This document shows, one piece after another, positions 46,895 through 63,263 of a stretch of DNA of 63,263 bases. The notes under the pieces were generated by a model that was given only the letters and a program-made list of their open reading frames with translations, was not told the origin of the DNA and did no database searches. The DNA comes from a virus (Duplodnaviria > Caudoviricetes). The position numbers were made by a program, and so were the translations under genes. The stretch covers positions 1 through 63,263 of IMG/VR virus record IMGVR_UViG_3300013885_000001. One strand, written 5' to 3'. Within the stretch, counting starts at the first letter, position 1. Every line of letters begins with the position of its first letter.

Positions 46895-46914
46895 ATATTG
46901 TTTAAGAGTTTTCT
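46895..46914 (-). promoter_or_regulatory. Conserved viral promoter-like motif
   Basis: Reverse complement AGAAAACTCTTAAACAATAT. Confidence 0.75.
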
Positions 46915-49582: not shown

Positions 49583-49736
49583 CCCTCTATTCTTCTGTTA
49601 GTCTATCTAAAGATTCTATATCTTTTTCGATCACTTCCTTCAAGAGTCTAATCGTCTATCACCACTATATCCAGAACAATATTGGAATAAAAATAATAAA
49701 AAGAAAGAAAAATAATGTTTCGTGTGTAGACAACAT

Positions 49737-50036
49737 TTATATCATCTCTCCAAGATCTTCAATATACCTCCTGGCTTGTTCAAGACTTGAAAAAAGTTGA
49801 AACATCTCATCTTTCTTAAACGTAGATCCATCATCCCTGGACTCGACAAACACCACACTATATAAAGGACCGTATCTTTTCGCCTCATAGACTCCCTCAG
49901 TTATCATGTAAGCAGTGTTTCCATTCAGCATCCCAATCTCCACGATATGTAACCTTAGATGGTATATGCATGTCTCTCCAAAGTGTCGATATATTATCTC
50001 CTCAGCTCTTGTTTTCTCAATGTCCAATGCGTTCAT
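49737..50036 (-). CDS. Hypothetical protein
   Basis: GGTGA RBS; followed by a T-rich tract on the minus strand. Confidence 0.6.
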   Translation of the reverse strand: MNALDIEKTRAEEIIYRHFGETCIYHLRLHIVEIGMLNGNTAYMITEGVYEAKRYGPLYSVVFVESRDDGSTFKKDEMFQLFSSLEQARRYIEDLGEMI

Positions 50037-50054
50037 AATGTATCACCCACTGAA

Positions 50055-50276
50055 TTAAGCACACATCATCTCTGTTAGCTGTATAATGTATTCACAAAAT
50101 CCTTTTCCACCAAAGCATACTATGTTGTAGGCTTCAGCCCAAGCGGTTACACTAAAGCAAGTTCCGCACGTTTCCACAAACGTTTGAGCCAATATTCCCA
50201 TAGCATCTTCTCCACTCAAAAGCCTGTCTAAATCCGACTTTAGTCTTCTTAAGAACACTCTTCTCAACTTTGTCAT
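50055..50276 (-). CDS. Hypothetical protein
   Basis: GGAGGTGA RBS. Confidence 0.55.
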   Translation of the reverse strand: MTKLRRVFLRRLKSDLDRLLSGEDAMGILAQTFVETCGTCFSVTAWAEAYNIVCFGGKGFCEYIIQLTEMMCA

Positions 50277-50279
50277 TAT

Positions 50280-50459
50280 TTACTCACCTCCTACTTTTCT
50301 TATTCTACATCTTACACATCTTACCCCACTTAATGACTCTCGCTCTATGGTATTCCAAGAGCAATCTCTTGTTACATACTTAATAACCCACTCTAACTCT
50401 TTGTCACTTATCTCATCAAATACGTGTCTAACACCATCCAAACTTTGTCTGTTATCCAT
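50280..50459 (-). CDS. Small hypothetical protein (start MDNRQ)
   Basis: Start placed downstream of the promoter motif at 50475-50494. Confidence 0.5.
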   Translation of the reverse strand: MDNRQSLDGVRHVFDEISDKELEWVIKYVTRDCSWNTIERESLSGVRCVRCRIRKVGGE

Positions 50460-50474
50460 TTTTACATCCTCCAT

Positions 50475-50494
50475 ACATTGTTTAAGAGTTTTCT
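50475..50494 (-). promoter_or_regulatory. Conserved viral promoter-like motif
   Basis: Reverse complement AGAAAACTCTTAAACAATGT. Confidence 0.72.
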
Positions 50495-50505
50495 TAAACT
50501 TTCCT

Positions 50506-50817
50506 CTAAAGCACCTTATCAATTTCTATGTCTACATCATCCTGATGATAATACCGCTCTAACCATAACAGACAATAACCAACTATATCGGTCAGTGTTT
50601 CACATATGAAATTCTTCTGACTCTCACTTAGATCTTCCATGAGTTTATTCTTATTCCATAGGGTTTTAAGCCTTGCAAATTTATCTGATAACCGAATATA
50701 TATGCCCAGCTCACCATTCTCTATATAAGCATCTCCATATTGTCTGTTTTTCTCTATTACAAGATCTATTATATCTATAGCCACATCATACAATCTACTT
50801 CTATTTACCATTTCCAT
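50506..50817 (-). CDS. DUF1599 / nucleotide-modification-associated helical domain protein
   Basis: KNRQYGDA, IRLSDKFARL, TLTDIVGYCLL. Confidence 0.7.
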   Translation of the reverse strand: MEMVNRSRLYDVAIDIIDLVIEKNRQYGDAYIENGELGIYIRLSDKFARLKTLWNKNKLMEDLSESQKNFICETLTDIVGYCLLWLERYYHQDDVDIEIDKVL

Positions 50818-50859
50818 TCACACACTCCTTTTTGAATATTTAACTAAAGATATGTGATA

Positions 50860-51096
50860 TTACCTCTGTTTCAATCTCTCTGACAACCTCATGATCACTT
50901 GATCTGTAGCAAGTTGAATATGCCTACTTGTTAGGATCTGTTTCCCATCAAACTTGAGTAGTCTAATAGCCTCACTGACAAGCTCGTTTATATACTCTTC
51001 TCCCAATGCAACTAAAAAATCTAAAGCCTCTTTCCGGATGTGATATCCACTTTCCTTAATATTATCATTCAGGACACTTTTTTTAATTACACTCAT
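50860..51096 (-). CDS. Histone-fold protein (78 aa)
   Basis: GGAGGT RBS before ATG 51096; IRKEALDFL...EEYINELVSEAIRLLKFDGKQILTSRHIQLA follows the HMf-type alpha2-L2-alpha3 pattern. Confidence 0.72.
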   Translation of the reverse strand: MSVIKKSVLNDNIKESGYHIRKEALDFLVALGEEYINELVSEAIRLLKFDGKQILTSRHIQLATDQVIMRLSERLKQR

Positions 51097-51112
51097 ATTA
51101 TACCTCCTACTC

Positions 51113-53446
51113 TTAAATACTACAGGTACCACTTTTACAAGACAAATCGAAATCCCAACTAATAGGTTGGTCACGTCTTGAGTTATTTCTATAAATAGTT
51201 ATACCTTTACATCTCATCTTCCAAGCCTTAGTATAGATATCTTTAACTTCATCAACTGTAGCAGATTCATACAGATTGATAGTCTTTGAGACTCCCAGAT
51301 CAACTATTTCTTGTGCTGCTGCCTGTATCTTCAAGTGTTCAATTGCTGGTATCTCAAAAGCTATCCTAAATACCTTTTTCTCATCCTTAGAAAATACGTC
51401 TATATTGGCTATAGAGCTATCCCGTTTGATCTGCTCAATAGTCTCTTGGTCTAAGTCTGGAAACCTCTCTTTAAACACTTGATTTACTTCAATTAAGACC
51501 GATCCGTCTAATATCCTTCTCTCATACATCCAACCAAAAGGTGGCTCAATTCCTGATGTGCAATTACAGATGGTACTTAATGTGCCAGTGGGTGCAATAG
51601 ACATCAGGTTAGCATTTGATCTACCATTATACACCTTAGGATATTCCAGATTACACGATATCTCATGTGCTTCATCTCGGATTATGCTCAGTAGTCTTCT
51701 TAACTCTCTTACTGATTCATCAGAACCATAGACTAAGTTATGTTTCAGACAATAGTCTCCAAATCCCATAACACCGATACCTATCTTCCTGAACCGTTTC
51801 ATGGCACGTTGTAGTTCTTTGTATGGCAATCTGTTCTTATCTATTATCCTATTAAGTAACAATGTCATGACCGATGCACTCTCTCTCAGCTGATCATCAT
51901 TTTCATATTTAGCTAAATTCAATGATCCTAAGTTACAGCTTTCCCACGGTAATAATGGACTTTCACCACAGTTTTTAGTGAGCACCAAATGTCGATTACC
52001 TATAAAGTCTGCATCAGATACGATGTAGTAGTTATGAGTCCCAGATACAGTCATATTATAAACATCCTCTTTTCTATTTCCGCTTATTACATGCTTAACT
52101 TTATAGTAAATGTTGTCGTCTCCCTTCAGATAATCTCCACTAACCAACTCTTTAGCCTCTTTCAATTGTCCATTCTTCAGATAGAACTTATGATCAGGTG
52201 TGACTGTAAATACTGCATAATTAGTCAATACAACTTTAACAACGGATGTATTCTCTCTTGTTTTTCTGATATTATAAGCTCTATGATAGGCATCTTTACC
52301 GGTCACATAGTTATGAGATAAGACCCAGACATCCTCCTCACTAACAAGATCCTTAATTTTCTTATATCCTTGAGTGGTTTTAATCAGAGTATTCCCACTT
52401 ACACAAGGATTGGTCATGGTGATGGGTTTATCTCCAACATAATTATCCTCGTTTATTCTATCATAAAATAGCATGCCCGGATCTCCACTCTTCCACGCCT
52501 CATAGCATATCAGATTAAAGATCTGTTGTGCCTTGACTTTTCTAACTACTCCCTTAGAATGTGGTGATATAAGATTAACATAGTCATTATCTTCAAGCGC
52601 ATACATAAAGTTATTATCCACCATCACTGAGAAGTTAAAAGATGATACATTCTCATTCTCTTTCATTATGATGAAGTCAAGTATATCGGGATGCGTATAG
52701 TTTAAACAAGCCATATTAGCTCCTCTTCTTCTACCACCTTGTTTAATCTCTGTAGTTGCTGCATTATAAATCCTAATCCACGATAGCAAACCAGATGATC
52801 CTTGAGATGATCCACTTATAGGTGCATCCTTTTCTCTCAGATTTGAAAAATCAAATCCAGTTCCTCCTCCATATTTGTGGATTACAACAGCCTTCTTTAA
52901 GGTTTCAAATATACCCTCTAAGGAGTCTTCAACAGGCAAACAGAAACACGCTGAATATAGATGCATTGGAGTCCCTGCGTTTGCTAATGCGGGTGAGTTT
53001 GGTAATCCTCGCATTTCTACAAACAAATTATAAAATAATTCTTGCTCCCTCTTATTAGTCCCAAAGTATCTTGATACTCTCCTTAACATGCCTAAGGGTG
53101 TCTCATCACCATATAAACAACGTTCCTTTAAGACCTGTAGTGCATTCTTAGATATACCCCAATCGTCTAAAACAGGAAACTGTTGTGATTCTCTCTTCTG
53201 CATCCTATACAGTATAAATTTCTTAGCTGTGTTATAACACCCAAATTCCATAAGCACCTTCTCAATGGTATCTCCTATTATATTAGTATCCAAGTTATCT
53301 CCCTTATCCCGCAATATTTCCATAACCCGATCAAAACAACCATCTTTTTCTTGCTCTCCAGATGCCGCAAACGCTTTAGATATAGATGCTCTTATCTTCT
53401 TAGGATTTAGATCCTCAAACTTATTACTTCTCTTTCTAACTTTCAT
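51113..53446 (-). CDS. nrdJ: Class II (B12) ribonucleotide reductase with ATP cone and intein
   Basis: PNSP, SACF, QGGRRRGANM, TNP/CGE, SIAPTGT, VSKTIN. Confidence 0.92.
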   Translation of the reverse strand: MKVRKRSNKFEDLNPKKIRASISKAFAASGEQEKDGCFDRVMEILRDKGDNLDTNIIGDTIEKVLMEFGCYNTAKKFILYRMQKRESQQFPVLDDWGISKNALQVLKERCLYGDETPLGMLRRVSRYFGTNKREQELFYNLFVEMRGLPNSPALANAGTPMHLYSACFCLPVEDSLEGIFETLKKAVVIHKYGGGTGFDFSNLREKDAPISGSSQGSSGLLSWIRIYNAATTEIKQGGRRRGANMACLNYTHPDILDFIIMKENENVSSFNFSVMVDNNFMYALEDNDYVNLISPHSKGVVRKVKAQQIFNLICYEAWKSGDPGMLFYDRINEDNYVGDKPITMTNPCVSGNTLIKTTQGYKKIKDLVSEEDVWVLSHNYVTGKDAYHRAYNIRKTRENTSVVKVVLTNYAVFTVTPDHKFYLKNGQLKEAKELVSGDYLKGDDNIYYKVKHVISGNRKEDVYNMTVSGTHNYYIVSDADFIGNRHLVLTKNCGESPLLPWESCNLGSLNLAKYENDDQLRESASVMTLLLNRIIDKNRLPYKELQRAMKRFRKIGIGVMGFGDYCLKHNLVYGSDESVRELRRLLSIIRDEAHEISCNLEYPKVYNGRSNANLMSIAPTGTLSTICNCTSGIEPPFGWMYERRILDGSVLIEVNQVFKERFPDLDQETIEQIKRDSSIANIDVFSKDEKKVFRIAFEIPAIEHLKIQAAAQEIVDLGVSKTINLYESATVDEVKDIYTKAWKMRCKGITIYRNNSRRDQPISWDFDLSCKSGTCSI
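51971..52405 (-). mobile_element. Mini-intein (145 aa) without endonuclease
   Basis: Starts CVSGNTLI; VTPDHKF; VYNMTV..THNY; ends TKN followed by the catalytic Cys. Confidence 0.9.
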
Positions 53447-53479
53447 TTGTTATCACCTCCTCAACACTTGTACATCTTC

Positions 53480-54109
53480 CTATTCACGATAAACTATATT
53501 ACCTGCCTCTTCTATTGCCTTCTGTTTGGTTAAACAAGCTACGCACTCACCACAAGGTCTTTCTTGATCCTTAATACAATCCCATGTCTCATCGATAGGC
53601 ACACCCAACATCAAGGCTTCTCTTGCTATTTCCGTTTTATTGAGATAGATGAATGGTGCATCAATTCTTATGAGATTGCCATTCACTCCGCTCTGAGTTC
53701 CAAACCTTATTGTGGTACCAAACGATTGAATAAATTCCAAACGACAATCAACATACCTATTATAATCAGTAAGATTAGCTCCATAACTAACAGTTTCTGC
53801 ACCTACCCGATTAGCGTATGCTATACCGTATGATAGAAATATAAGTTGCTTTCCCTCAAACGCACCATAGCTTAAACTTGTATCCGACCTATGATCTACA
53901 ATTTTATCAAGATTAAGCTCAATAAGTTGGTGCTCCTTCACTCCCAACATCTCGCCTATCTTCATGGCTGCTTCTAACTTTCTCTTGTTTTCTCGTCCAT
54001 ACCTGAACGTCAGTGCATAGATATCCTTTTGCTCTTTGTGTTTCAAATAATATGCTAATGTGCTACTATCTAAGCCTCCCGATAGAAGTACTATAGCTCG
54101 TTTGTTCAT
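53480..54109 (-). CDS. queC: QueC-like PP-loop ATPase (7-cyano-7-deazaguanine synthase family), divergent
   Basis: LLSGGLDS, YVDCR.EF, TWDC...CGECVAC. Confidence 0.8.
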   Translation of the reverse strand: MNKRAIVLLSGGLDSSTLAYYLKHKEQKDIYALTFRYGRENKRKLEAAMKIGEMLGVKEHQLIELNLDKIVDHRSDTSLSYGAFEGKQLIFLSYGIAYANRVGAETVSYGANLTDYNRYVDCRLEFIQSFGTTIRFGTQSGVNGNLIRIDAPFIYLNKTEIAREALMLGVPIDETWDCIKDQERPCGECVACLTKQKAIEEAGNIVYRE

Positions 54110-54124
54110 TTTATCATCTCCATA

Positions 54125-54144
54125 TTACTATTTAAGAGGTTTCT
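54125..54144 (-). promoter_or_regulatory. Variant of the conserved promoter motif upstream of queC
   Basis: Reverse complement AGAAACCTCTTAAATAGTAA. Confidence 0.6.
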
Positions 54145-54148
54145 AAAT

Positions 54149-54844
54149 TTATACATAGACCAGCGATGGAAGATTGTCACATATCCTTACGAACCCGGGT
54201 ACCTGCATTGGATAAGTTGATGATACCTTAAGATACTCAATTTTAGATATATCGAATAGACCTCCTGACTCAATGATAAAGTGTTTACCACTTGCATCCT
54301 TGCTAAGTGATAATCTATGTTGATGTGCTGCCACCACGTTCATCCTATACTTTTCTGCTAATCTTTTAGATACTGACAATGGAACGAATGAGTAGTTTTT
54401 CGGATGGCATATATACCAGCTGTCATTGAGAACACAGTGATCATAGTTAGTTACCTTATAGTCTTCATCCTCGTTTAGTTCACCTCTGAAGAGGCTTATA
54501 AGATCAGATAGATCATTCTCTCCACCAAGTTTAGATAAAAATCTATCCTCGTGGTTGCCTCTTAGAAAATATATATTCTTAAAGACTGATAATGAGGTTA
54601 ACACCCGATTAGCTTGTTCCAACTCACGTTTAAATGTAAGCTCTCTATATTCAAAATTTAAAAAGTCCGTCATTTTAAAACAATCCAAGAAATCTCCTGC
54701 TATTATCAGATCAGTTATATTATGTTTTTTAGCCATATCCAAAAGTTTCTGTATATGTCTCTGGCTGTGGAATGGCACATGATAATCTGAAGATACGATT
54801 ACATCACTGGCATAGATCCTTAACTCTTTTCTTAGCATCTTCAC
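54149..54844 (-). CDS. Calcineurin-like metallophosphoesterase
   Basis: SDYH, GDFLD, GNHE, AHQH. Confidence 0.88.
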   Translation of the reverse strand: MKMLRKELRIYASDVIVSSDYHVPFHSQRHIQKLLDMAKKHNITDLIIAGDFLDCFKMTDFLNFEYRELTFKRELEQANRVLTSLSVFKNIYFLRGNHEDRFLSKLGGENDLSDLISLFRGELNEDEDYKVTNYDHCVLNDSWYICHPKNYSFVPLSVSKRLAEKYRMNVVAAHQHRLSLSKDASGKHFIIESGGLFDISKIEYLKVSSTYPMQVPGFVRICDNLPSLVYV

Positions 54845-54995
54845 CTCTCCGCAAATGATATATTTTACGCTCTATAGATTTAGGACTTCTCAACAGTATT
54901 CTACCTATATCTTTATAAGGGACATTATACGCTTTCAATATTTTCAAACACTCAACTTCGTGTTCAGTCCACCTCTCAAACTGTCTGAAGTTCAT
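54804..54995 (-). CDS. Small Myb/HTH-like DNA-binding protein
   Basis: WTEHE...YKDIGRILLRSPKSI. Confidence 0.6.
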   Translation of the reverse strand: MNFRQFERWTEHEVECLKILKAYNVPYKDIGRILLRSPKSIERKIYHLRRGEDAKKRVKDLCQ

Positions 54996-54998
54996 TTT

Positions 54999-56999
54999 TT
55001 ACATATCCTCCATAAACTCAAAGTCATCTAACGACAGAGTAATAAGATCTTTCACACGTGAGATACTTCTCTCACATGTTTTATCATAATCTATTTTGTA
55101 TCCGTCTAATTTAGACAGATCTTTAGGCAAAGCAAGTATATCAGTGTATGGCACTCCAGAAGGACAACTCTTAACATATACTAACATTCCTAAATCCTCA
55201 TATTCAGTCTCGCCTATATACCTGTGTGTATATTCCAGAGCCCTTGCAGCTTGAGTTTTAACTCTATATGCCTTATCTAAGCGTATCTTTCTGGGAAATG
55301 CAATATAATGTAGAGGATGCTCCTTAATCATAGCTAACTGCCTACTAACATTAGCTGCAATCTCCCGTTTCTTTAACCCATTCAACAGACCCTTTATGAC
55401 ATCAAACTCTATATCTTTCTGTAGATTTGAAGTATCACCTCTCACTATACCCATACCCTTAATAACATATTTGTCGGGTTCATTAAACAGCACATATTGT
55501 TTCTTAGTTTTGATAAACACCTTCTCCCAAAGTCCTTTGAACTCAACTCTAAATTTATCCACAAAGTTAAACTCACTGACATAGTCGTTTAGGATATCAT
55601 CTATGAACAGCCCAGACTTTTTGTCTGGATCATCCGATACAAACACAGAGTCCGTGTCTGCATAAACGATATTAAACCCTCTATCTTCTAAACCTGATTT
55701 TAGATACTGTATTACACTCCTACCAATTGAAGTTATCGACTCAGCTATTGTTCTGTTGTATATACGAGAGTTGACAAACCCAAATTGACCATATATTGCA
55801 TTGATAACTGATGTCTTTAAGGCTTCTTGTTGGATATAGTATCTTCTATCTCCAGTCTCCTTGTATTTCTTTTTTAATATCATTCTTTCTGAGATTAGCT
55901 CTTTTAGGATTTTAGGTATTATTCCAAACGGTTTACTCTTGAACCTAATACCATTCTCTAACAATATGTCTCCTGATGCATCAAACGTCTCAAGTGATAT
56001 ATTAGATGCTATGATAATTGTAGGATACAGAGCTGTGAAATCCCAAATAGCTACATTCTCGTATCTGCCGGGATTGGCATAGACATATGCTCCCTCGTAT
56101 TTCCCACCATTATTACGCCATTTACAAGTTCTTAGAACATACCCCGATCGGTTAAACGATCTTAGTAAAATTATATCATCAAAAGTAGATGAGCTTAAGG
56201 TATCTTTTATTAGGCATCTGCCTATGCTTGCCAGATACGTAAAGTAAAACATTATCTCAAATTTCTCATCAAGAAGCTTTATAATCTCAGTATCTCGTCT
56301 ATTATACTCCTCCAGCTCTTCCTTACTAAGATCTTCAGGGTGTCTTGGACCTAAATCTATCTTCTCACTGTCTACCAGTTTTGCCACAGTGGATAGCTTA
56401 AAGTTGCTGATGGGATCAGTCCATATCTTACGAAACATCGTGAGTAAATCAAGATACTCGATGCTCATTGGAATACTAAAGTTTTTTCTCTGAAGTATCT
56501 TATAGTCCCATTCACTCCAAGATGTGATAATATCATACCCAACTATAAACGAATCGAATTCACTAAGTATCTCTTTCTCCTTTGAAGCACAATACATTTC
56601 CCTACCATCATTTGTCATAGCTGACAACGCTATAATATTATCCTTCCTATCAGCCTCGATATCGAAGTATACTACTCTTGGTTCTATAAATAACTCATCC
56701 TCAAGGACATCAATTAAGATCCTCCGATCGAACGGGATATCTCCTTCATAGGTATGTTTAAATTGCTTTCTAAGCTTTCTAACTTTTGTTAGATCTTCTA
56801 CAACTACCTTCCTAATAGTACTCCGCTCTCTCAGAGTGCCACCTCTTCGATCATCTACGTAGAAATAAGGCTTGATCTTATTAGAATACCACACCTCTTT
56901 TTCATCATCTTCATTTCGTCCAAAGAACATCATCATAGGAGTTCTACCATACCCAGATGAATAAACTTGCCCATCTATCTCAGGTGTTAGCTCTTTCAT
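54999..56999 (-). CDS. polB: Family B DNA polymerase
   Basis: FDIE, YNRRD, DFTALYPT, INAIYG, YADTDS. Confidence 0.94.
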   Translation of the reverse strand: MKELTPEIDGQVYSSGYGRTPMMMFFGRNEDDEKEVWYSNKIKPYFYVDDRRGGTLRERSTIRKVVVEDLTKVRKLRKQFKHTYEGDIPFDRRILIDVLEDELFIEPRVVYFDIEADRKDNIIALSAMTNDGREMYCASKEKEILSEFDSFIVGYDIITSWSEWDYKILQRKNFSIPMSIEYLDLLTMFRKIWTDPISNFKLSTVAKLVDSEKIDLGPRHPEDLSKEELEEYNRRDTEIIKLLDEKFEIMFYFTYLASIGRCLIKDTLSSSTFDDIILLRSFNRSGYVLRTCKWRNNGGKYEGAYVYANPGRYENVAIWDFTALYPTIIIASNISLETFDASGDILLENGIRFKSKPFGIIPKILKELISERMILKKKYKETGDRRYYIQQEALKTSVINAIYGQFGFVNSRIYNRTIAESITSIGRSVIQYLKSGLEDRGFNIVYADTDSVFVSDDPDKKSGLFIDDILNDYVSEFNFVDKFRVEFKGLWEKVFIKTKKQYVLFNEPDKYVIKGMGIVRGDTSNLQKDIEFDVIKGLLNGLKKREIAANVSRQLAMIKEHPLHYIAFPRKIRLDKAYRVKTQAARALEYTHRYIGETEYEDLGMLVYVKSCPSGVPYTDILALPKDLSKLDGYKIDYDKTCERSISRVKDLITLSLDDFEFMEDM

Positions 57000-57858
57000 T
57001 TATCTTGCCCCGTCGACAATCTATACATAAGTTATATTTCTTAAGTGTTTTACATCGAGGGAGGATATACTTCCCATTTCTTATATGCTTAATCTGATAC
57101 CATACTATCTTAGGGTTCCAATCCACCCAACCCTTCTTCTCCAAGTCTCTAAATATCTGCAGATCAGAGTATCCCTCGATTATCTTGTAGATCACGTAAA
57201 AGACTCTTGCTAAATGAGGTGGCTCATCTTCCTTAATGAAATGATCTAAACATGGATAGGTATGAAGCTCTGATATACGCATATCCAAGATATTAGTTGA
57301 CTCATTAAATTTAACTTTATCAAAGTACGTAGCATCATTCTCCCAGAGCAAGAGATCCAATTGAGGAGTTTGGTTTTCAGTCCTAAATATCTCTTTACAT
57401 AATTTGCCATTCTTCTCATTGATGGTTCCAGGTATTCTCATCAATCTCTTTACATCTCCAACAATATGCGGATCTGCTGATTTCAATCTCAGCCCATCTA
57501 TGATATCCCGTTGAAACTTGAACAGGTCTTTATCAGTATAATGATGTTCAACCACCCTTAAATATACGTGATAGCCATTACCAGAAAAAATCACTCTGTA
57601 TGTTAGCCCATTCAAATCAAAAAATCTACATAACTTTGAGACATCATGCTTAGCGTTCGACCCGTCAAGATCAAATGGCACATAAGTTAAATATGGTTCC
57701 TGATCATACTGACAAACACTTATAAAGCATGGATTAATACCATTATTCTCTTCAATAAGCGTCTCAAGTCGTTGCATCGAATAGACTTTTACCTGATAGG
57801 GATTTCCAAACATTCTATAACTCCCTTTATCAATCGTCACCAAGTCCATCCATCTCAT
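56980..57858 (-). CDS. Archaeo-eukaryotic primase with C-terminal Cys-containing (PriL/PriX-like) domain
   Basis: FDLD, SGNGYHVY, RLMRIPGTIN; C-terminal PC...PRC...CIDC. Confidence 0.85.
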   Translation of the reverse strand: MRWMDLVTIDKGSYRMFGNPYQVKVYSMQRLETLIEENNGINPCFISVCQYDQEPYLTYVPFDLDGSNAKHDVSKLCRFFDLNGLTYRVIFSGNGYHVYLRVVEHHYTDKDLFKFQRDIIDGLRLKSADPHIVGDVKRLMRIPGTINEKNGKLCKEIFRTENQTPQLDLLLWENDATYFDKVKFNESTNILDMRISELHTYPCLDHFIKEDEPPHLARVFYVIYKIIEGYSDLQIFRDLEKKGWVDWNPKIVWYQIKHIRNGKYILPRCKTLKKYNLCIDCRRGKINERANT

Positions 57859-57968
57859 CCCACAACCGATACTTTCTTCCTGCCATGCTCTTCACCTATC
57901 CATTAACTACCACTTTCTTAATCATCCCTAAACATTGAGACCATAGAAGAGACTACAATCTATAGATG

Positions 57969-58574
57969 TCATTCATTATAGAACTCATATATGTTCTTAG
58001 ATGTCTTCTTCCCTAAACCCTCATTCATTAGATCGTCAACAGTTGCATTGGCTATATTCTTGATTGTTCCAAATTTACTCAGTAACATCTCTGCCCTCTT
58101 AAATGATACACCTCTTATACAACTTAATGAGGCATGCCTTAGATACTTGATATCCCGACCTTTCCTGATGGGAAGTGAGGGAGTGGATGGTGTCTCTTTA
58201 CGCTTATCAATGAATTTTAGATATTCAATAAATTCGTCATCATCATAGAAATACATCAGTGGTAACTTATACTTTAAGATAAGAGATCGGACTATTCCGA
58301 AATATACATTCTTATTCTTCTTAATACCTGATAAATAGAGTGCCTTCCAGATATTACCAGTGATCGCTATTATGCTATTGTAGTCTGTTTGATTCTTAAG
58401 CTCATAGGCTTGTAGCCACAATCTACCATCAAGTAATGATGTAACAAGATCTTTTGCCGTCTTCCGCTCATACAACTCATTCCCTACTATGTAATCTCCC
58501 ACCTTCAACTCATCCAGTTTAGCATCTGCAAATTTGTCCCGTATTTCCTTAGGCTCTCTTTTATCTATGATCAT
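57969..58574 (-). CDS. ERCC4/XPF-family nuclease with HhH domain
   Basis: IDKRE, GDY, ERKT..DL, GRLWLQ; IRGVS...GLGKK. Confidence 0.9.
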   Translation of the reverse strand: MIIDKREPKEIRDKFADAKLDELKVGDYIVGNELYERKTAKDLVTSLLDGRLWLQAYELKNQTDYNSIIAITGNIWKALYLSGIKKNKNVYFGIVRSLILKYKLPLMYFYDDDEFIEYLKFIDKRKETPSTPSLPIRKGRDIKYLRHASLSCIRGVSFKRAEMLLSKFGTIKNIANATVDDLMNEGLGKKTSKNIYEFYNE

Positions 58575-59368
58575 TCTAAGTCAGCATAACCATAGTCTTC
58601 TTTGATCATTACAGGCTTGAACTCAGATTCCATGCTACCAGTCCATCTGTATCTTTGTACTCTCCTGCCACGCATGCCAACCTTATCAAACAGAGGTTTA
58701 TCTGCTTTCTTAAGAAGGATGAGATATTTAGAAAGATACATAAGAACAGGACCACCAAATGGATTCTGTTTATCAGCAAAAGCTATTGGATTTACTGATG
58801 CATGATGAGTTAGAATAAATGTATTACCATACTCCTCCATACACTCAGTCATTGCACCGAATAGTTGAGTTTCAATTATACTTCTCGCTCCTAAATTCTG
58901 TGGCTCCATTACCATCGTTAATTTAATCATCTCACTGAATGAATCTAAGACTATCAGGTCATACTTAGAAAGATCCTCTCGAGTCCATTCACCATTAGTC
59001 TTCCGTTCCTTGATCTCCTTGCTTTTCATATCTCGTATCTGGATAGATATCTTATCTTTACTCTTATCAAGATCAATATAGATATTGAGCATAGCTCCAA
59101 ATGCTTGACTGTTCAAGACCTTACAATAGTCTGGTATCTTGTCAACTTTAAATCTATCAAGAAATATCTTAGCAATTTTGTCAGAGTCATACTCAGAGGG
59201 TGTTGTAATATGCAAACATTTCTTACCATCGTGGATAGCGTTCATCATAACTTGAGTGGCTAATAGAGACTTACCAGTATTAGGGAGAGCAAAAATCCCA
59301 GAGACTCTTTGCTCTGGGAAGCCTCCAAATATTAATTCATCAATAGTTTTAACATCAGTTGCATACAT
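58571..59368 (-). CDS. RecA-superfamily (RadA/RadB-like) ATPase
   Basis: IDELIFGGFP, PNTGKS, LIVLDS. Confidence 0.8.
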   Translation of the reverse strand: MYATDVKTIDELIFGGFPEQRVSGIFALPNTGKSLLATQVMMNAIHDGKKCLHITTPSEYDSDKIAKIFLDRFKVDKIPDYCKVLNSQAFGAMLNIYIDLDKSKDKISIQIRDMKSKEIKERKTNGEWTREDLSKYDLIVLDSFSEMIKLTMVMEPQNLGARSIIETQLFGAMTECMEEYGNTFILTHHASVNPIAFADKQNPFGGPVLMYLSKYLILLKKADKPLFDKVGMRGRRVQRYRWTGSMESEFKPVMIKEDYGYADLE

Positions 59369-59386
59369 ATAGCACCTTACACCTCC

Positions 59387-60067
59387 TTACTCTTCTCCTT
59401 TATTATCATCCAATTCTGTATCATCGAATTCTATCTCATCTTCTCCCGATCCTACGTCAGTCATATTGTCCTTCTTATAGATCAATCTATCCTGTCTCAC
59501 CTCAATCCGCCTCATATTCCTGGCAACCTTATCAAACTGCTCCGATGTAATCTTAAATACATTTCGTATTATGTTTCTGACATCTGATAGAGATGCCTCT
59601 CCACCATTTGCTCTCACCATAGATTCTATTTCCATCTGGATATCAGCTACTTTCCTCTGAGGTAAGTCTCGGGACAAGTCAGAACGTGGCTTAGCAGATT
59701 TTCGAGATCCAGCAAATCCCTCAAATCTCACTGTCCAATCATACATGCTATCCCGTTGAATTGTGAATATAGGTTGTTTGTTCTCAAGATCATCTAAAGA
59801 TATATTCCTTATAGCCATCTCTTTCTTTAATGCCCGTCGAAGTCCTAACTGACCTATTAGTAACTTCCTTTCTTCATTAGGCACTATATTAATTTCCGCT
59901 AACCACTGATTCCATCTTACTTCATCTCCAATTGGATTTTCCTCACCTTTCTGATAGAGCCAGAACCCTGTAAGGAACTTTATACATGCTTTTTGTCCCT
60001 CTTTTAAAGATACATATGAACCGAAGTCCATACTATCCCATTCTGCCTGAGTCATTTTTCTTGGCAT
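59387..60067 (-). CDS. Hypothetical protein, possibly ssDNA-binding, with acidic tail
   Basis: First gene of the replication operon; acidic C-terminus. Confidence 0.5.
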   Translation of the reverse strand: MPRKMTQAEWDSMDFGSYVSLKEGQKACIKFLTGFWLYQKGEENPIGDEVRWNQWLAEINIVPNEERKLLIGQLGLRRALKKEMAIRNISLDDLENKQPIFTIQRDSMYDWTVRFEGFAGSRKSAKPRSDLSRDLPQRKVADIQMEIESMVRANGGEASLSDVRNIIRNVFKITSEQFDKVARNMRRIEVRQDRLIYKKDNMTDVGSGEDEIEFDDTELDDNKGEE

Positions 60068-60096
60068 ATTTTACCTCCTTAATTTTTTCTTATCAC

Positions 60097-60116
60097 TAAT
60101 TGTTTAAGAGTTTTCT
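60097..60116 (-). promoter_or_regulatory. Conserved promoter motif ahead of the replication operon
   Basis: Reverse complement AGAAAACTCTTAAACAATTA. Confidence 0.75.
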
Positions 60117-60248
60117 AAACGATTGTGGGTTTCAGTCTTTTTACTGATACATCCTCCTCAATATACATTTAAGAGTTACATAAAAATAATAAGCTTTAAA
60201 TATCATAAGAGTTTAATAAACCATCATTCATTCAGGAGAGGTGATGTA

Positions 60249-60812
60249 ATGAGAACTAATATTTCCAAGATAGAGAAGTTGGGTGTGGAGAACTATGTCA
60301 TCACACTAAGACATGAGGGATACTCATTCAGAGAGATAGCTGAGAAGGTGAATGAGATAATCCCTGATGCCAATCTGTCTACAGATAACGTCGCTAAGTT
60401 TATCAAGTCTCACCCACATTTGAATAAAATGTCTTCAGGTGAAGTGGTTACTTACAAAGTACTCAATAATATGAGACAGATTCTTGATAAGATATGGCAA
60501 CTTGAGGCTGAGGCTGAACAGTTTTTGAAAAAAGCTAAGGAGACTGAAGATAGAAGATCGATGGTGTCTGCTATCAGAGCTTGTAATGAAGTACTAAGAA
60601 CGTGTCTTGCTGTAGCCAGAGAGTTGAAGGCACCATCCGAAACTCTTAAGGTAGATGTTAGACATCAAACGATAAACTATATGATAAACATTATAAACCA
60701 GTTGCCTAAGGATTCTCAGATGATTTTAAGAAAGCAGATAGAAGAGATATATGAGAGAGAGTTAAGCCAGTCTAAAGAGGATATAGAAGATGGTGAAAAA
60801 GAAAACAATTAG
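60249..60812 (+). CDS. HTH plus helical protein, candidate terminase small subunit or regulator
   Basis: GAGGTGA RBS before ATG 60249; GYSFREIAEKV. Confidence 0.55.
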   Translation: MRTNISKIEKLGVENYVITLRHEGYSFREIAEKVNEIIPDANLSTDNVAKFIKSHPHLNKMSSGEVVTYKVLNNMRQILDKIWQLEAEAEQFLKKAKETEDRRSMVSAIRACNEVLRTCLAVARELKAPSETLKVDVRHQTINYMINIINQLPKDSQMILRKQIEEIYERELSQSKEDIEDGEKENN

Positions 60813-60813
60813 A

Positions 60814-60838
60814 GTGGTGATAAATGCGTCATCACCAC
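60814..60838. terminator. Inverted repeat between convergent genes
   Basis: GTGGTGAT-9 nt-ATCACCAC. Confidence 0.4.
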
Positions 60839-60848
60839 CCCATATGAT

Positions 60849-61433
60849 TTATTTATTGCGACCACTCTCTTCAATTGCCTGTCTCTTCTTTCTTTTCTTC
60901 TGAAATCTAACTTCAATATTATGCTTTCTAAGATGCCTTAACACAGTAGGACTCGTGCAACCAATCATCTCCGCAATTTCAGTGCTTGATTTTCTTTTGT
61001 TTATGTATTGATCATATAACCAGTCTCTATCTCTTAGCAATCTTAAATCAGAATTCTTACTATACCAGTTGAGATAACATGTTTCTTGTCTGACTCTTGT
61101 CATGATGCCAAACTTCTTCATGTTGTCGTTTATCCTTGCCTTTGTGGTGTGGGTAATCTGTTTGATTTTACCGAGAGATACTTTTTCTTCTTCATATTTC
61201 TTACGTAGCCATTCTTCATCCTCAACTAATGTATTGTTTGGATATTTCTTACTAAGCCATAGATGTATTCTCTCCTTGTGGTTTCTTGTTGGAATTTTAA
61301 ATCTCTTTATGGCTCTTATTAATGCCTTGTCACTGCAACCTATTAAGTCAGCCATCTCCCTCGCATTTAGTTTTTCTTCTACATATTTCTGCGTTAGCCA
61401 CTCTTTATCATATAGGAGACTGTGGTTATCCAT
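60849..61433 (-). CDS. Protein with three tandem HTH repeats
   Basis: Three units of the form D.EWL...Y.....S..EIA..IGC. Confidence 0.75.
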   Translation of the reverse strand: MDNHSLLYDKEWLTQKYVEEKLNAREMADLIGCSDKALIRAIKRFKIPTRNHKERIHLWLSKKYPNNTLVEDEEWLRKKYEEEKVSLGKIKQITHTTKARINDNMKKFGIMTRVRQETCYLNWYSKNSDLRLLRDRDWLYDQYINKRKSSTEIAEMIGCTSPTVLRHLRKHNIEVRFQKKRKKRQAIEESGRNK

Positions 61434-61458
61434 GATATCACCTCATTAGACTCCTCAT

Positions 61459-61538
61459 ATATTGTTTAATAGTTTCCTTAAGATTTAGTGTTAGTAGTAT
61501 CCGATAGTGATAAATTTTAGAAAACTCTTAAATAATAT
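61459..61538. promoter_or_regulatory. Back-to-back divergent copies of the promoter motif
   Basis: Minus copy 61459-61478 (AGGAAACTATTAAACAATAT); plus copy 61519-61538 (AGAAAACTCTTAAATAATAT). Confidence 0.7.
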
Positions 61539-61926
61539 ATGAGGGAGTGTAGATTAAACCCATCTTCAAATTGATGAAGTGGGAAGGATCCTCCCTGTAT
61601 ATGAGCATCCTATTTGAGGTGAGATGCCTACGTAGTAGTTAGAGGATAGGGTGTGATAAAGCCGCTGGGACTGAGGATGAGTCATAACTTGGGAACATAG
61701 GACTAATACCTTGACCCTTATCAGACCGCCTGTGAAGTCTGTCAGTGTTATACGACTCAGGGGATATTCCATTTTTTGTTTTTTTATGATCGGGAATGTT
61801 GCCCTGGGAGCCACTGACTGATGGACTGGCAACGTCTCTGACCAGAGACTTGAGATGCCTCTGGTGTGCTCTCCGTTGTCAGGGTCAGAGGTCACCTTTC
61901 TCTATAGTGGCTGCCTCTCTCATATA
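61536..61926 (+). ncRNA. Candidate structured non-coding RNA of unknown class
   Basis: Promoter motif, no credible ORF, raised GC, many nested helices with G-U-compatible mismatches. Confidence 0.55.
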
Positions 61927-62059
61927 AGACTAGACTATCTACAAATTCAGTAAATTCAGGTGTAAGAGTAGAAGTAAAATTAAACCAAAATCAACTGATG
62001 AAACTACTCAAAATGAAAAGTAAATAGTGTATAGTATGAATAGAATGTATGATATTAAA

Positions 62060-63160
62060 GGGTTTCACTCTATATAGATATAATCAGATATCAGTATAAT
62101 ATATAGAGGCGAGTAGGGTCTATATATGATATATATAATTGACAGAAACTATATATGGTCAGTAGTTCTATATATGACTATATAAGATCCATAGATCTAT
62201 ATATGAATATATATGGACTGTAGATCTATATATGACTCTATAGACACTATAGTTCTATATAGTTGGATAGGAGTTTATATAGACATACAGATCATATATA
62301 GACATCTGTATGTTTAGGAGGAAATATATAGACATACTGACGTCTATATATCAGGATATAGTCTATATATTTTAAGGAGAATATCTATAGTACTCTATAT
62401 AACTGAGGATGTCTATATAGGAAGTGATAGTCTATATATTTCCGAGTGAGTTTCTATAGTATCAGTAGGTCTATATAGAGTTGGTGGTGTCTATATATCT
62501 TACAGTATGAGTAAGTAAGATATAGAGACAACCACACTGATATATAGATGCTTGTAGTCTATATGAGTGGAAGTAGATCTATATATTTTCAGATGAATGT
62601 CCTTACTAATATATAGAGACTGATATCCATACATATGATGAGTAGATCTATATATCTCTAAACAGTAGTCCATACTGATACGGATTTCAGACAGTATCTA
62701 TATAGTTGAGAGTGAATGTCAGTAGTTTCTATATGTTGATATGGATCTATATATCTGTATCTTACTCTATGTAGTAGTCTATATCACTATGGATCTTAGG
62801 GAATATCTATATAATTAAGGTGGATGTCAGTAGGTCTCTATATATCATAGGAAGATTATATATGAGTGACACTCTCTATATAGACATAAGGAGAAGAAAG
62901 TAAATTCTATATAGACTAAACTTAAGATCAGTAACATACTTAAATCTAAGAGTCGTTATATAGAGACTAACTAACATATATAATCTGGAGCAGTGGTGGG
63001 TATCTCTATATAACAAGTAATAATCTATATACACCCATTGAGATCTCTATATACCAACATATACAAGGAGCATATCTACATACTCTCTGTAGTAGTAGCA
63101 TCAACAAACACTCAGTTAATACATCAACTGTTAGAGTGACTATAGAGACTAATATATAAT
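62060..63160. repeat. Dispersed array of TCTATATA/TATATAGA motifs
   Basis: Roughly 35-40 copies by eye, both orientations, unique spacers, no ORF. Confidence 0.85.
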
Positions 63161-63184
63161 GAATTAGTATCCTCGTGAAAAAAG

Positions 63185-63263
63185 CCTTAGTTTGAAATTT
63201 ATAAATTGAAAGTTAGTATCATTTTATTTTTTTATTAAATTTAAGCTTTTTTATTTTTTTATT
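63185..63263. repeat. Terminal redundancy, right copy
   Basis: Identical to 1..79. Confidence 0.95.

What the first reader, a model, noticed from the sequence alone, without database searches (positions are those of the whole stretch)
61536..61926. Promoter-linked ~390-nt highly structured element with no ORF: candidate new ncRNA
Seen helices: CCCA-CTTCA 61559-68 / TGAAGTGGG 61575-83; TGAGTC-ATAAC 61678-88 / GTTAT-GACTCA 61747-59 enclosing CAGAC/GTCTG; CAGGGGATATTCC 61758-70 / GGAATGTTGCCCTG 61793-806 around a U-rich loop; AGCCACT 61809-15 / AGTGGCT 61906-12 enclosing CTGGCAACG / CGTTGTCAG. The 5' TATATGAGGGAG can pair either locally (61591-602) or with the 3' end (61915-26). Mismatches are often G-U compatible on the + strand, and a GAGGTGA RBS with a 3-codon ORF sits in a hairpin near 61617. 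I do not recognise the family. Caveat: a TSS ~25 nt past the TATA would exclude the 5'-most helix. Inference: scaffold, decoy, switch or replication-primer RNA.
Basis: partly seen in the sequence, partly recalled or inferred. Interest (0 to 1): 0.8.

Follow-up and report, generated by a model that had tools for sequence, protein, structure and literature searches.

The report
Orphan viral promoter driving GC-rich non-coding stretch
In the only long non-coding region of a 63-kb, probably archaeal, tailed virus, one copy of the virus's own repeated promoter points into the most GC-rich stretch of the genome, which codes for no protein and probably yields a short non-coding RNA rather than one large, highly folded 390-nt RNA.

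Summary
Partly confirmed. The element is also the GC-richest stretch of the genome at 100, 200 and 391 nt. It lies behind one of eight copies of a 26-nt promoter motif; the other seven each precede an ORF. It has no coding signal and matches no Rfam family.

"Highly structured" is overstated. The whole element folds at z -2.29 on the + strand and -2.35 on the - strand. The middle 150 nt folds no better than shuffles. A T6GT7 run at 61772-61785 splits the element. The virus encodes PCNA, PolB, an XPF-like nuclease and a RadA/KaiC-like ATPase, so the host is probably an archaeon, and there this run should end + strand transcripts. The predicted 242-nt transcript has z -0.55. Only its 5' end is well folded, at z -3.6 with 0 of 200 shuffles as good.

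I found no homologue, so there is no covariation test. No RNA data were listed.

Best reading: an approximately 245-nt non-coding RNA from an orphan viral promoter, function unproven, next to a likely replication origin. Interest is moderate to low.

The parts
61516..61541 (+). Promoter motif copy facing the element (TTTAGAAAACTCTTAAATAATATATG). The TATA-like TTTTAGAA is at 61515-61522. The inferred transcription start is near 61541.
   Evidence: One of 8 matches to TTWAGRAARNTNTTAAAYAATRTRTG, with 0 expected. In the alignment with the 7 gene-linked copies, start codons lie as little as about 13 nt after the motif. The start site itself is inferred.
61456..61481 (-). Divergent promoter copy that drives the 3xHTH gene 60849-61433. 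With the copy above it forms a 29-nt-arm palindrome.
   Evidence: inverted repeat I1, 86% complementary; 120-nt window at 61441 has z -5.6.
61541..61785 (+). Predicted non-coding transcript of about 245 nt, running from the inferred start to the oligo-T run.
   Evidence: No ORF and no coding signal. As a whole it is not better folded than shuffles: z -0.55 for 61544-61785. Both ends are inferred; there are no RNA data.
61542..61596 (+). 5' stem-loop I. AGGGAG pairs with CUCCCU and closes the hairpin 61559-61583. It begins one nucleotide after the inferred start.
   Evidence: Fold of 61541-61600: -22.7 kcal/mol, MFE frequency 0.69, z -3.61, 0 of 200 shuffles as good. The - strand scores the same, z -3.62.
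61602..61658 (+). Stem-loop II. An 11-bp stem carries a 29-nt loop that displays GAGGUGA, AUG-CCU-ACG-UAG-UAG (mini-ORF 61624-61635) and the first copy of UGAGAUGCCU.
   Evidence: Fold of 61541-61660: z -2.79, 4 of 200 shuffles. Folded alone, 61600-61680 gives z +0.28. The 10-mer has only two exact copies in the genome, both in the element.
61772..61785 (+). TTTTTTGTTTTTTT, the likely archaeal transcription stop for + strand RNA.
   Evidence: Within the two coding blocks, T runs of 7 or more on the sense strand occur only twice, and both are intergenic: 12717-23, about 22 nt after a stop codon (this run is also part of the next promoter's TATA region), and 46469-75 on the - strand, about 17 nt after a stop codon. 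Seven such runs lie on the antisense strand. Function is inferred.
61756..61808 (+). Hairpin whose 22-nt loop is the T-run. It has two G-U pairs on the + strand.
   Evidence: Fold of 61755-61810: + strand -19.7 kcal/mol, z -3.70, 1 of 200 shuffles; - strand -10.1 kcal/mol, z -1.77. It can form in RNA only if transcription reads through the T-run.
61806..61915 (.). GC-richest segment of the genome (0.58 per 100 nt). It forms a long imperfect hairpin with the second UGAGAUGCCU in its apical loop, and it lies downstream of the T-run.
   Evidence: GC rank. Fold z -2.01 on + and -2.68 on -. As ssDNA, 61750-61930 gives z -2.0. With its flanks, 61786-61930 gives z -0.82.
61915..61926 (-). Inverted copy of TATATGAGRGAG, closing the element.
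   Evidence: 6 matches at up to 1 mismatch in the genome against 1.76 expected.
60849..61433 (-). Context: neighbouring gene for a protein of three tandem HTH repeats. It is a candidate binder of the iterons and TATATGAG boxes.
   Evidence: Only weak HTH-family Pfam matches. The binding role is inferred.
62069..63053 (.). Context: helically phased array of about 32 (T)CTATATA(T/G) sites, a likely origin or protein-loading array.
   Evidence: 35 of the genome's 39 TCTATATA lie here, against 10.2 expected genome-wide. Spacings cluster at 19, 29, 38-39, 48-50 and 60.
63185..63263 (.). Context: 79-bp overlap with bases 1-79, so the assembly is circular or permuted. It lies inside AT-rich 27-bp tandem repeats that continue to about base 150 (GC 0.16).

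Best explanation
The element is an orphan transcription unit of the virus that makes non-coding RNA.

One copy of the virus's repeated promoter starts transcription near 61541. The motif reads as an archaeal BRE/TATA-type promoter, with TTTTAGAA about 25 nt upstream of a T|G start. The RNA begins with a well-defined 55-nt stem-loop (61542-61596). A second stem-loop follows, whose large loop displays a Shine-Dalgarno-like GAGGUGA and a 3-codon mini-ORF. Next comes a poorly structured, G-rich stretch. The RNA most likely ends in the oligo-U tract encoded at 61772-61785, giving about 245 nt.

I take it to act as an RNA in trans: a stable small viral RNA made together with the replication and modification genes that share its promoter. 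It may work through its exposed SD/AUG mimic or its anti-SD-like CCUCCC.

The GC-rich hairpin at 61806-61915 lies beyond the stop. It is either a read-through extension or a separate DNA-level feature.

Shown: the promoter motif family, the lack of coding potential, the GC island, the local 5' structure and the T-run.

Inferred: the archaeal host, the start site, the termination point, the stability of the RNA and any trans function.
For: Promoter. There are 8 copies of a 26-nt motif with 0 expected. Seven lie directly upstream of same-strand ORFs: the HsdM gene at 2565, then the ORFs starting at 11994, 12744, 46878, 50458, 60067 and 61433. The eighth faces the element.

Composition. The element is the GC-richest window of the genome at 100 nt (0.58), 200 nt (0.505) and 391 nt (0.468, best window starting at 61540-61543). 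The genome mean is 0.366. All other non-coding gaps of 120 nt or more have GC 0.16-0.30.

Not coding. The codon-usage score of the only long ORF (109 aa, - strand) is -0.111. That is within the range of 10 spurious overlapping ORFs (-0.244 to -0.021). The 33 training genes score 0.119-0.348 and 14 small genes score 0.157-0.366. All six frames of the element score 0 or below. There is no Pfam match. A search of 1.84 billion representative proteins gave only 2 hits, both inflated by repeats.

Structure. The 5' stem-loop starting at the inferred 5' end has z -3.61, 0 of 200 shuffles as good, and MFE frequency 0.69. The first 120 nt have z -2.79.

Host and termination. The virus encodes PCNA, PolB, ERCC4+HhH and a KaiC/Rad51-like ATPase. 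There is no excess of sigma-70-like promoters (65 found, 87.1 expected) or hairpin terminators (6 found, 8.2 expected). Sense-strand T7 runs are absent from genes.
Against: There are no transcript data: only 2 DNA runs were listed and their contigs do not cover 61574-62002.

No homologue was found anywhere, so there is no covariation or conservation evidence.

The predicted transcript as a whole folds no better than shuffles: z -0.55, with 59 of 200 shuffles as good.

The 5' stem-loop is equally good on the - strand, so it could be a DNA palindrome.

The best + strand-specific hairpin (61756-61808, with two G-U pairs) straddles the putative terminator and could not form in the terminated RNA.

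A test for complementarity to 80 viral translation-initiation regions gave nothing: 23% of 60 shuffles did as well.

The archaeal host is inferred. The nearest TerL in genome contigs is on a contig binned as Saccharibacteria, at 37% identity.
Confidence: 0.35

Rival explanations
1. Origin-associated, cis-acting transcript. The orphan promoter fires toward the iteron array and the AT-rich repeats, and the G-rich, GC-rich RNA acts at the origin. It could open the origin by transcriptional activation, or form an R-loop or primer for the viral PolB. This would work like ColE1 RNA II, the T4 ori(uvsY)/oriF R-loops, the T7 primary origin or the mitochondrial LSP transcript (all recalled from established knowledge).
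For: The element lies between the 3xHTH gene and a phased array of about 32 iterons followed by GC-0.16 tandem repeats. This is the only long non-coding region of the genome. Gene orientation and GC skew switch here: + strand genes run from 299 to 46439 and - strand genes from 46492 to 61433. The promoter points at the array. The + strand of the element has G 104 against C 77, with GC skew +0.17 to +0.42 over 61500-61750. The promoter class serves replication and modification genes.
Against: The T6GT7 run would stop the RNA about 280 nt before the first iteron and about 1.4 kb before the AT-rich repeats. G content is only 27%. No origin has been mapped, so the origin assignment is itself inferred. 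No primase or initiator has been identified. A relative with 37% TerL identity has a differently built, unrelated non-coding iteron region.
Confidence: 0.22
2. A DNA-level cis element. The hairpins and the four TATATGAG boxes (61453-, 61536+, 61598+, 61926-) would be protein-binding or cruciform sites of the origin or control region, for example for the 3xHTH protein. Any transcription would be regulatory or incidental.
For: Fold z-scores are the same on both strands, for the whole element and for the 5' stem-loop. The 3' hairpin is better on the - strand, z -2.68 against -2.01, and as ssDNA it gives z -2.0. TATATGAGRGAG is over-represented, 6 found against 1.76 expected, and it brackets the element in inverted orientation. 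It shares ATATATGA with the iteron variant CTATATATGA. The strongest local 'structure' is the promoter palindrome.
Against: This does not explain why 390 bp should be the GC-richest stretch of the genome while all other regulatory DNA is AT-rich. It does not explain why a full promoter copy with a start-site context like the 7 gene-linked copies points into it. The hairpin 61756-61808 is much more stable as + strand RNA because of two G-U pairs, -19.7 against -10.1 kcal/mol.
Confidence: 0.13
3. A relic. The stretch would be foreign or decayed DNA, such as a fragment of a captured gene or an insertion bounded by the 12-nt inverted repeat. It would sit behind a promoter that once served a gene and would have no present function.
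For: The GC content is unlike the rest of the virus. It has a 12-nt terminal inverted repeat with TA-rich flanks. The - strand has a 111-codon stop-free stretch, reached by 2.35% of 2000 mononucleotide shuffles. The genome carries other likely acquired DNA: its HsdM is up to 81% identical in amino acids to those of MAGs from many phyla.
Against: There is no second copy in the genome. There was no related DNA in 59 loci from other viruses and MAGs, in 5 relatives' records, in the phage collection, or in the 439 archaeal genomes searched, where only short low-complexity matches appeared. A 20-mer scan of genome contigs and viral contigs gave 1 chance hit and 0 hits. There is no credible protein homologue. 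The genome is otherwise tightly packed, which argues against keeping junk.
Confidence: 0.13
4. One reading: one approximately 390-nt structured RNA spanning 61536-61926, closed by the 5'/3' helix, with transcription reading through the T-run.
For: The full-length fold uses the terminal helix and the hairpin across the T-run, and it reaches z -2.29, better than either half alone. The GC island spans the whole 391 nt. The G-U pairs favour the + strand in 61756-61808. UGAGAUGCCU is present in both halves and sits in the hairpin loops of both halves in the predicted folds.
Against: T6GT7 lies in the middle. The - strand scores equally, z -2.35. The middle 150 nt is unstructured. The start inferred at 61541 removes 5 of the 12 terminal pairs. 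A 10-nt repeat within 391 nt is not rare by my own rough estimate, which was not computed.
Confidence: 0.08
5. It encodes one or more very small proteins: the 3-codon MPT mini-ORF at 61624, the 22-codon ORF from the AUG at 61574, the 32-aa ORF 61855-61953 or the 43-aa ORF 61796-61927.
For: GAGGTGA precedes the ATG at 61624. Both copies of TGAGATGCCT contain ATG-CCT.
Against: The SD-to-ATG spacing is only about 4 nt, against 7-10 nt at two genes behind the same promoter motif (2565 and 61433). The other ORFs have no SD. All + frames have codon scores of 0 or below. There is no Pfam match above threshold.
Confidence: 0.04

Closest known systems
GC-rich islands that mark structural RNA genes in AT-rich archaeal genomes (the GC-content screen of Klein, Misulovin and Eddy, 2002; recalled, not read here)
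   Same: A non-coding island of GC 0.46-0.58 in a genome of GC 0.37, where other non-coding DNA has GC 0.16-0.30.
   Different: That signal was established for hyperthermophile chromosomes, not for viruses. Here the island has no homologues and only patchy predicted structure.
Origin transcripts: ColE1 RNA II, T4 ori(uvsY)/oriF R-loop RNAs, T7 primary-origin promoters (recalled)
   Same: A promoter with no gene behind it points at an iteron and AT-rich region, and the transcribed segment is G-skewed and GC-rich.
   Different: A strong oligo-T run lies 280 nt before the iterons. There is no sequence or Rfam similarity. The origin is not mapped. The host is probably archaeal, where I know of no such case (recalled; three literature listings, showed none).
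Small phage-encoded RNAs such as lambda oop or P4 CI RNA (recalled)
   Same: A discrete promoter-to-terminator unit with no ORF in the control region of a tailed virus, carrying stem-loops.
   Different: At about 245 nt it is longer. It is not antisense to any annotated gene, and a complementarity test to 80 viral start regions was negative. It belongs to no family.
Lambda bar minigenes (an SD plus a 2-codon ORF that traps peptidyl-tRNA; recalled)
   Same: GAGGUGA followed by AUG-CCU-ACG-UAG-UAG, displayed in a hairpin loop.
   Different: The SD-AUG spacing is only about 4 nt. Translation is untested. The resemblance may be chance.
Stowaway-type MITEs and MITE-derived miRNA precursors (Rfam MIR1120, MIR6288, MIR8706)
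   Same: The top sub-threshold Rfam matches are to these families (E 0.033-0.29), and the element has a 12-nt terminal inverted repeat with TA-rich flanks.
   Different: Those matches cover 61444-61554, which is the palindrome of the two divergent promoters and not the element. Their scores are 21.1-24.2 bits against gathering scores of 74-95. There are no further copies anywhere.

Membership tests
Any Rfam 15 family (4227 covariance models) | Score at or above the family's gathering threshold | tested here: not met
   There were 0 matches in the whole window at gathering scores. At E up to 10 there were 8 matches in 61300-62200 and 3 in 61536-61930, all far below gathering. The best inside the element scored 14 bits against a gathering score of 55.8.
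tRNA / tmRNA | Cloverleaf detected by ARAGORN | tested here: not met
   0 genes in the window.
5S rRNA (a lead from protein hit P0002, which I recognise from memory as a translation of tandem 5S-rDNA-like repeats) | Match to RF00001 or its three-helix-junction consensus | tested here: not met
   There was no 5S match even at E up to 10. The protein-level similarity is 13-17 identities per repeat unit and is summed over 5 repeats.
MITE / non-autonomous transposon | Terminal inverted repeats | tested here: inconclusive
   The repeat matches at 11 of 12 nt. However, 11 comparable inverted pairs occur in the same 800 bp, and the left arm is part of the promoter motif.
MITE / non-autonomous transposon | Multiple copies in the same or related genomes | tested here: not met
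   Only the promoter part recurs in the genome. The rest has no copy in 59 loci, in 5 relatives' records or in a 20-mer scan of genome contigs and viral contigs.
Protein-coding gene (native or decayed) | Codon usage like the virus's genes, or a detectable homologue | tested here: not met
   The codon score is -0.111 against 0.119-0.366 for genes. There is no Pfam match. The 2 hits among 1.84 billion representatives are inflated by repeats. Only the longest frame was searched against that library.
Origin primer / activator transcripts (ColE1 RNA II-like, T4 R-loop-like) | Promoter without a gene, oriented toward an origin | tested here: inconclusive
   The orientation toward the iteron and AT-rich region is met. 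That this region is the origin is only inferred, from gene-strand and skew switches.
Origin primer / activator transcripts (ColE1 RNA II-like, T4 R-loop-like) | Persistent RNA-DNA hybrid and a processed 3' end used by the polymerase | not testable with these tools
   This needs DRIP, RNase H mapping or replication-initiation-point mapping.
Archaeal C/D-box sRNA | C (RUGAUGA) and D (CUGA) boxes about 12 nt from guide-length spacers in a unit of about 60 nt | tested here: not met
   By eye, UUGAUGA at 61570-76 is not followed by CUGA at the required distance. Rfam snoRNA models gave nothing relevant.
Structured ncRNA in general | Folding energy clearly below shuffles on one strand, plus covariation | tested here: inconclusive
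   The whole element has z -2.29 on + and -2.35 on -. The 5' 60 nt have z -3.6 on both strands. The predicted transcript has z -0.55. Covariation could not be tested because no homologue was found.

The most novel reading that the evidence does not exclude
The stretch encodes a new class of archaeal-virus RNA with no relatives in Rfam. It would be made from a virus-specific promoter beside the replication origin. It would act either as the first RNA primer or R-loop activator described for an archaeal virus origin, or as a ribosome or SD decoy through its loop-displayed GAGGUGA-AUG minigene. The full 390-nt fold would form when the oligo-U tract is read through, which would make the T-run inside a hairpin loop a regulated stop.
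Probability: 0.12. Interest if true: 0.7.

Novelty: new member of a known kind. Interest (0 to 1): 0.35.

Why it matters
From recall, almost nothing is known about non-coding RNAs of archaeal tailed viruses or about how such viruses start replication. Three literature listings turned up nothing directly relevant.

This window offers a clean test case: a repeated, easily recognised promoter with one copy that serves no gene, beside a phased iteron array. If the RNA is real, it could be tested as a small regulator made with the replication genes or as part of origin firing.

As it stands, the virus is a singleton in the collections searched. The claim rests on composition and promoter homology, not on conservation or expression.

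Tried and rejected
Homologue searches, all negative:
- blastn against 50,697 phage records.
- Earlier findings by place and by sequence.
- blastn and nhmmer of the element against loci of relatives found with the MTase, HTH and TerL proteins. 59 loci were searched and nothing scored E 10 or below in nhmmer.
- Whole records of 5 relatives: one 14-nt chance match.
- Relatives of the RadA-like protein, the 226-aa ORF and PolB in viral contigs: none.
- Promoter pattern: 0 in viral contigs. It gave 9 hits in metagenome contigs, but none shares any tblastx similarity with the window.
- Element against 5 named archaeal MAG genomes, 301 genomes of the class of G006 and 133 of the class of G010. Only 20-45-nt matches appeared, mostly to the T-run, at per-genome E 1e-4 or weaker.
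- One 20-mer: 1 chance hit in genome contigs with unrelated flanks, and 0 in viral contigs.

Expression: no RNA holder was listed. The two DNA runs gave contigs covering 61390-61554 and 62057-63263, but none over 61574-62002. This says nothing either way.

Protein coding is rejected.

The 5S rRNA lead from P0002 is rejected.

MITE is rejected for lack of copies.

DGR template or other internal repeat: no second copy in the genome.

Antisense to viral start regions: the best duplex was -41.7 kcal/mol against a shuffle mean of -40.1, and 23% of 60 shuffles did as well.

Bacterial sigma-70 promoter or intrinsic terminator in 61300-62150: 2 promoter-like sites against 3.0 expected, and 0 terminators.

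Relatives with 35-38% TerL identity share only the structural module. Their non-coding regions are unrelated.

The host could not be named. HsdM relatives span many phyla.

Literature listings were seen as search listings and abstract starts only. No paper was read.
Full report
What the window is. The window is a complete IMG/VR virus record of 63,263 bp. Its 79-bp "direct terminal repeat" is an end overlap, with bases 1-79 equal to 63185-63263, so the assembly is circular or permuted. It is a tailed virus: terminase large subunit at 14165-15538, portal at 15619-16788, tape-measure protein at 35691-38579. Genes run on the + strand from 299 to 46439 and on the - strand from 46492 to 61433. The replication block encodes family-B DNA polymerase, PCNA, an ERCC4+HhH nuclease, a KaiC/Rad51-like ATPase, ribonucleotide reductase with an intein, a thymidylate-synthase-like protein and QueC. 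PCNA with PolB and an XPF-type nuclease points to an archaeal host. This is inference. The nearest TerL in genome contigs is on a contig binned as Saccharibacteria at 37% identity, and the HsdM relatives span many phyla. Sigma-70-like promoters (65 found, 87.1 expected) and hairpin-plus-T terminators (6 found, 8.2 expected) are not enriched. The genome is tightly packed. Only six gaps of 120 nt or more lack an ORF, five of them are 143-298 nt with GC 0.16-0.30, and the sixth is the 1,830-nt stretch 61434-63263 that holds the finding.

The observation. So are the 11-of-12 terminal inverted repeat and the GAGGTGA plus 3-codon ORF. Their statistical weight is modest. The 391-nt element folds at -131.9 kcal/mol on the + strand, z -2.29, with 4 of 100 dinucleotide shuffles as good. 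On the - strand it folds at -110.7 kcal/mol, z -2.35, with 3 of 100 as good. The signal is therefore not strand-specific. My background sample of 391-nt windows was small: 44 windows, all within the first 9 kb because the machine was slow. It had mean z -0.08 and sd 1.07, with 1 of 44 at or below -2.29. With 120-nt windows the background was 364 windows from 1 to 47 kb, with mean -0.13, sd 1.07, 2.5th percentile -2.35 and 1st percentile -3.36. Against this the element is patchy. Windows starting at 61501, 61531 and 61741 reach -3.0 to -3.6. Windows starting at 61561 to 61681 lie between -1.1 and +1.3 on the two strands. The strongest window in the neighbourhood, 61441 with z -5.6, is the palindrome made by two divergent promoter copies and not an RNA helix.

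What is solid. First, composition. The element is the GC-richest stretch of the whole genome at 100 nt (0.58 at 61791-61801), 200 nt (0.505) and 391 nt (0.468). The best 391-nt window starts at 61540-61543, almost exactly where the element starts.

Second, the promoter. The sequence just upstream is one of eight copies of a 26-nt motif, TTWAGRAARNTNTTAAAYAATRTRTG, with 0 expected in 100 shuffles. Seven copies lie directly upstream of a same-strand ORF: HsdM at 2565 and the ORFs starting at 11994, 12744, 46878, 50458, 60067 and 61433. The eighth, at 61516-61541, faces the element. Some start codons follow the motif by only about 13 nt, with GGAG at the motif's end. Transcription must therefore start at or before the terminal TG. 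That places a TATA-like TTTWAGAA about 25 nt upstream, as in archaeal promoters. For the element the inferred start is near 61541. The motif is absent from IMG/VR, and its 9 matches in JGI metagenomes are unrelated DNA.

Third, the stretch is not coding. No + strand ORF exceeds 43 aa. The 109-aa - strand ORF has a codon-usage score of -0.111. That falls among 10 spurious overlapping ORFs (-0.244 to -0.021) and far from 33 genes (0.119-0.348) and 14 small genes (0.157-0.366). All six frames of the element score 0 or below. Pfam finds nothing. HMMER against 1.84 billion representatives gives two hits whose scores are sums over five repeats of a weak match. One of them, P0002, I recognise from memory as a spurious translation of 5S-rDNA-like tandem repeats. 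Rfam's 5S model does not match the element. The 111-codon stop-free run is reached by 2.35% of 2000 shuffles.

Fourth, no known RNA family matches. Rfam gave 0 matches at gathering scores in the window and only chance-level matches at E up to 10. There are no tRNAs.

Anatomy of the likely transcript. From the inferred start, the first 60 nt form a well-defined extended stem-loop in which AGGGAG at 61542-47 pairs with CUCCCU at 61591-96 around the hairpin 61559-83. It folds at -22.7 kcal/mol with MFE frequency 0.69 and z -3.61, and 0 of 200 shuffles do as well. The - strand scores the same, z -3.62. A second stem-loop (61602-61658) displays GAGGUGA, the AUG-CCU-ACG-UAG-UAG mini-ORF and one copy of UGAGAUGCCU in a 29-nt loop. 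The first 120 nt together have z -2.79.

A T6GT7 run lies at 61772-61785. Within the two coding blocks, sense-strand T runs of 7 or more occur only twice, and both are in intergenic spacers 17-22 nt after a stop codon. Seven such runs lie on the antisense strand inside genes. One of the two sense-strand runs doubles as the TATA region of the next promoter copy. In an archaeal host such a run is expected to end transcription (established knowledge; not tested here). This gives an RNA of about 245 nt. Taken whole, that RNA is not better folded than shuffles: z -0.55, with 59 of 200 as good.

The remaining 140 bp is the GC-richest part. It holds a long imperfect hairpin at 61806-61915, with z -2.01 on + and -2.68 on -. 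With its flanks, 61786-61930, it scores z -0.82. The one hairpin that clearly favours the + strand is 61756-61808, with two G-U pairs: -19.7 against -10.1 kcal/mol, z -3.70. It carries the T-run in its loop, so it can form in RNA only after read-through.

Surroundings. Downstream lie about 32 sites of (T)CTATATA(T/G) in both orientations between 62069 and 63053. These include 35 of the genome's 39 TCTATATA, against 10.2 expected. Their spacings cluster at 19, 29, 38-39, 48-50 and 60 bp, which are multiples of roughly one helical turn. After them come 27-bp AT-rich tandem repeats across the assembly junction, GC 0.16. Gene orientation and GC skew diverge from this region. The divergent neighbour gene encodes three tandem HTH repeats. 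Together this looks like the replication origin and control region. That is inference; nothing maps the origin.

Search for relatives. None was found, so conservation and covariation could not be tested. The searches covered the phage collection and earlier findings. They covered 59 loci from relatives of three proteins and the full records of five relatives. Three replication proteins had no close relatives. The archaeal genome search covered 439 genomes. A 20-mer scan was also run. Relatives with 35-38% TerL identity share only the structural module and have unrelated non-coding regions. Two public DNA runs hold parts of the region. No RNA run was listed, and the contigs do not cover the element.

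Interpretation. The best-supported reading (0.35) is an orphan viral transcription unit producing a non-coding RNA of about 245 nt, with a stable 5' stem-loop and a U-rich 3' end. It would be made together with the replication and modification genes that share its promoter, and it would act as RNA in trans. A test for complementarity to 80 viral start regions was negative, so any target is unknown.

The main rival (0.22) is a cis-acting origin transcript that activates the origin or forms an R-loop or primer. The position, orientation and G-skew favour it. The oligo-T stop 280 nt short of the iterons weighs against it. Other rivals follow:
- A DNA-level element (0.13), favoured by the strand-symmetric z-scores and the four TATATGAG boxes.
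- A relic of foreign DNA (0.13).
- Small proteins (0.04).

Comparison and novelty. The element works most like a phage small RNA or an origin transcript, but it is a member of no described family: every membership feature I could test failed or was inconclusive. If real, it is a new member of a known kind, a virus-encoded non-coding RNA, in a group of viruses where few are known (recalled). The literature searches were seen as listings only and showed nothing relevant.

Verdict. This is a genuine, unusual non-coding island with a credible promoter. The claim of a highly structured 390-nt RNA is not borne out, and no comparative or expression evidence is available. Interest 0.35.

Noticed in passing
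window 62069-63053: There are about 32 sites of (T)CTATATA(T/G) in both orientations. Their start-to-start spacings cluster at 19, 29, 38-39, 48-50 and 60 bp, roughly multiples of one helical turn. The array holds 35 of the genome's 39 TCTATATA. It is a phased protein-binding array, possibly the origin or a TATA-like decoy array.
   Followed up: partly
window 63185-63263 and 1-150: AT-rich 27-bp tandem repeats (GC 0.16) span the 79-bp end overlap of the assembly. They are a likely DNA-unwinding element. The contig break falls inside the repeat.
   Followed up: partly
window 2522, 11971, 12721 (+); 46892, 50472, 60094, 61456 (-); 61516 (+): Eight copies of a 26-nt promoter motif, with 0 expected by chance. 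They serve HsdM, several small genes, a DUF7222 gene, a 226-aa ORF and the 3xHTH gene, but none of the structural genes I identified (TerL, portal, tape measure). This looks like a distinct, perhaps early, promoter class.
   Followed up: yes
window 60849-61433 (-): A 194-aa protein made of three tandem HTH repeats, transcribed divergently from the element. It is a candidate binder of the iterons and of the TATATGAG boxes.
   Followed up: no
window 51113-53446 (-) and 299-2467 (+): Intein or Hint domains are inserted in the ribonucleotide reductase and in an N6/N4 DNA methyltransferase.
   Followed up: no
window 2565-11850: A block of about 9 kb of restriction-modification genes. HsdM is up to 81% identical in amino acids to those of MAGs of Bacteroidales, Atribacteria and methanogens. 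The block also holds a PIN-domain protein, a 1054-aa HsdS-like protein with five Methylase_S stretches and an 872-aa methyltransferase. It was probably acquired horizontally.
   Followed up: partly
window 47061-47798, 48935-49582, 53480-54109 (-): The virus encodes PCNA, a thymidylate-synthase-like protein and QueC. QueC is part of the 7-deazaguanine pathway, which hints at modified DNA.
   Followed up: no
window 60812-60849: The convergent genes 60123-60812 (+) and 60849-61433 (-) are separated by a GGTGAT...ATCACC hairpin, a possible bidirectional terminator.
   Followed up: no
L024 3960-4600: A distant relative (37% TerL identity) has its own GC-richer non-coding region upstream of the packaging genes. 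It carries repeated TCTAGCAYG boxes and GGTGGG...CCCACC hairpins, unrelated in sequence to this element.
   Followed up: partly
G000 record: CheckV completeness is given as 43% although the contig closes on itself. This suggests that the reference viruses used for the estimate are poor matches for this lineage.
   Followed up: no
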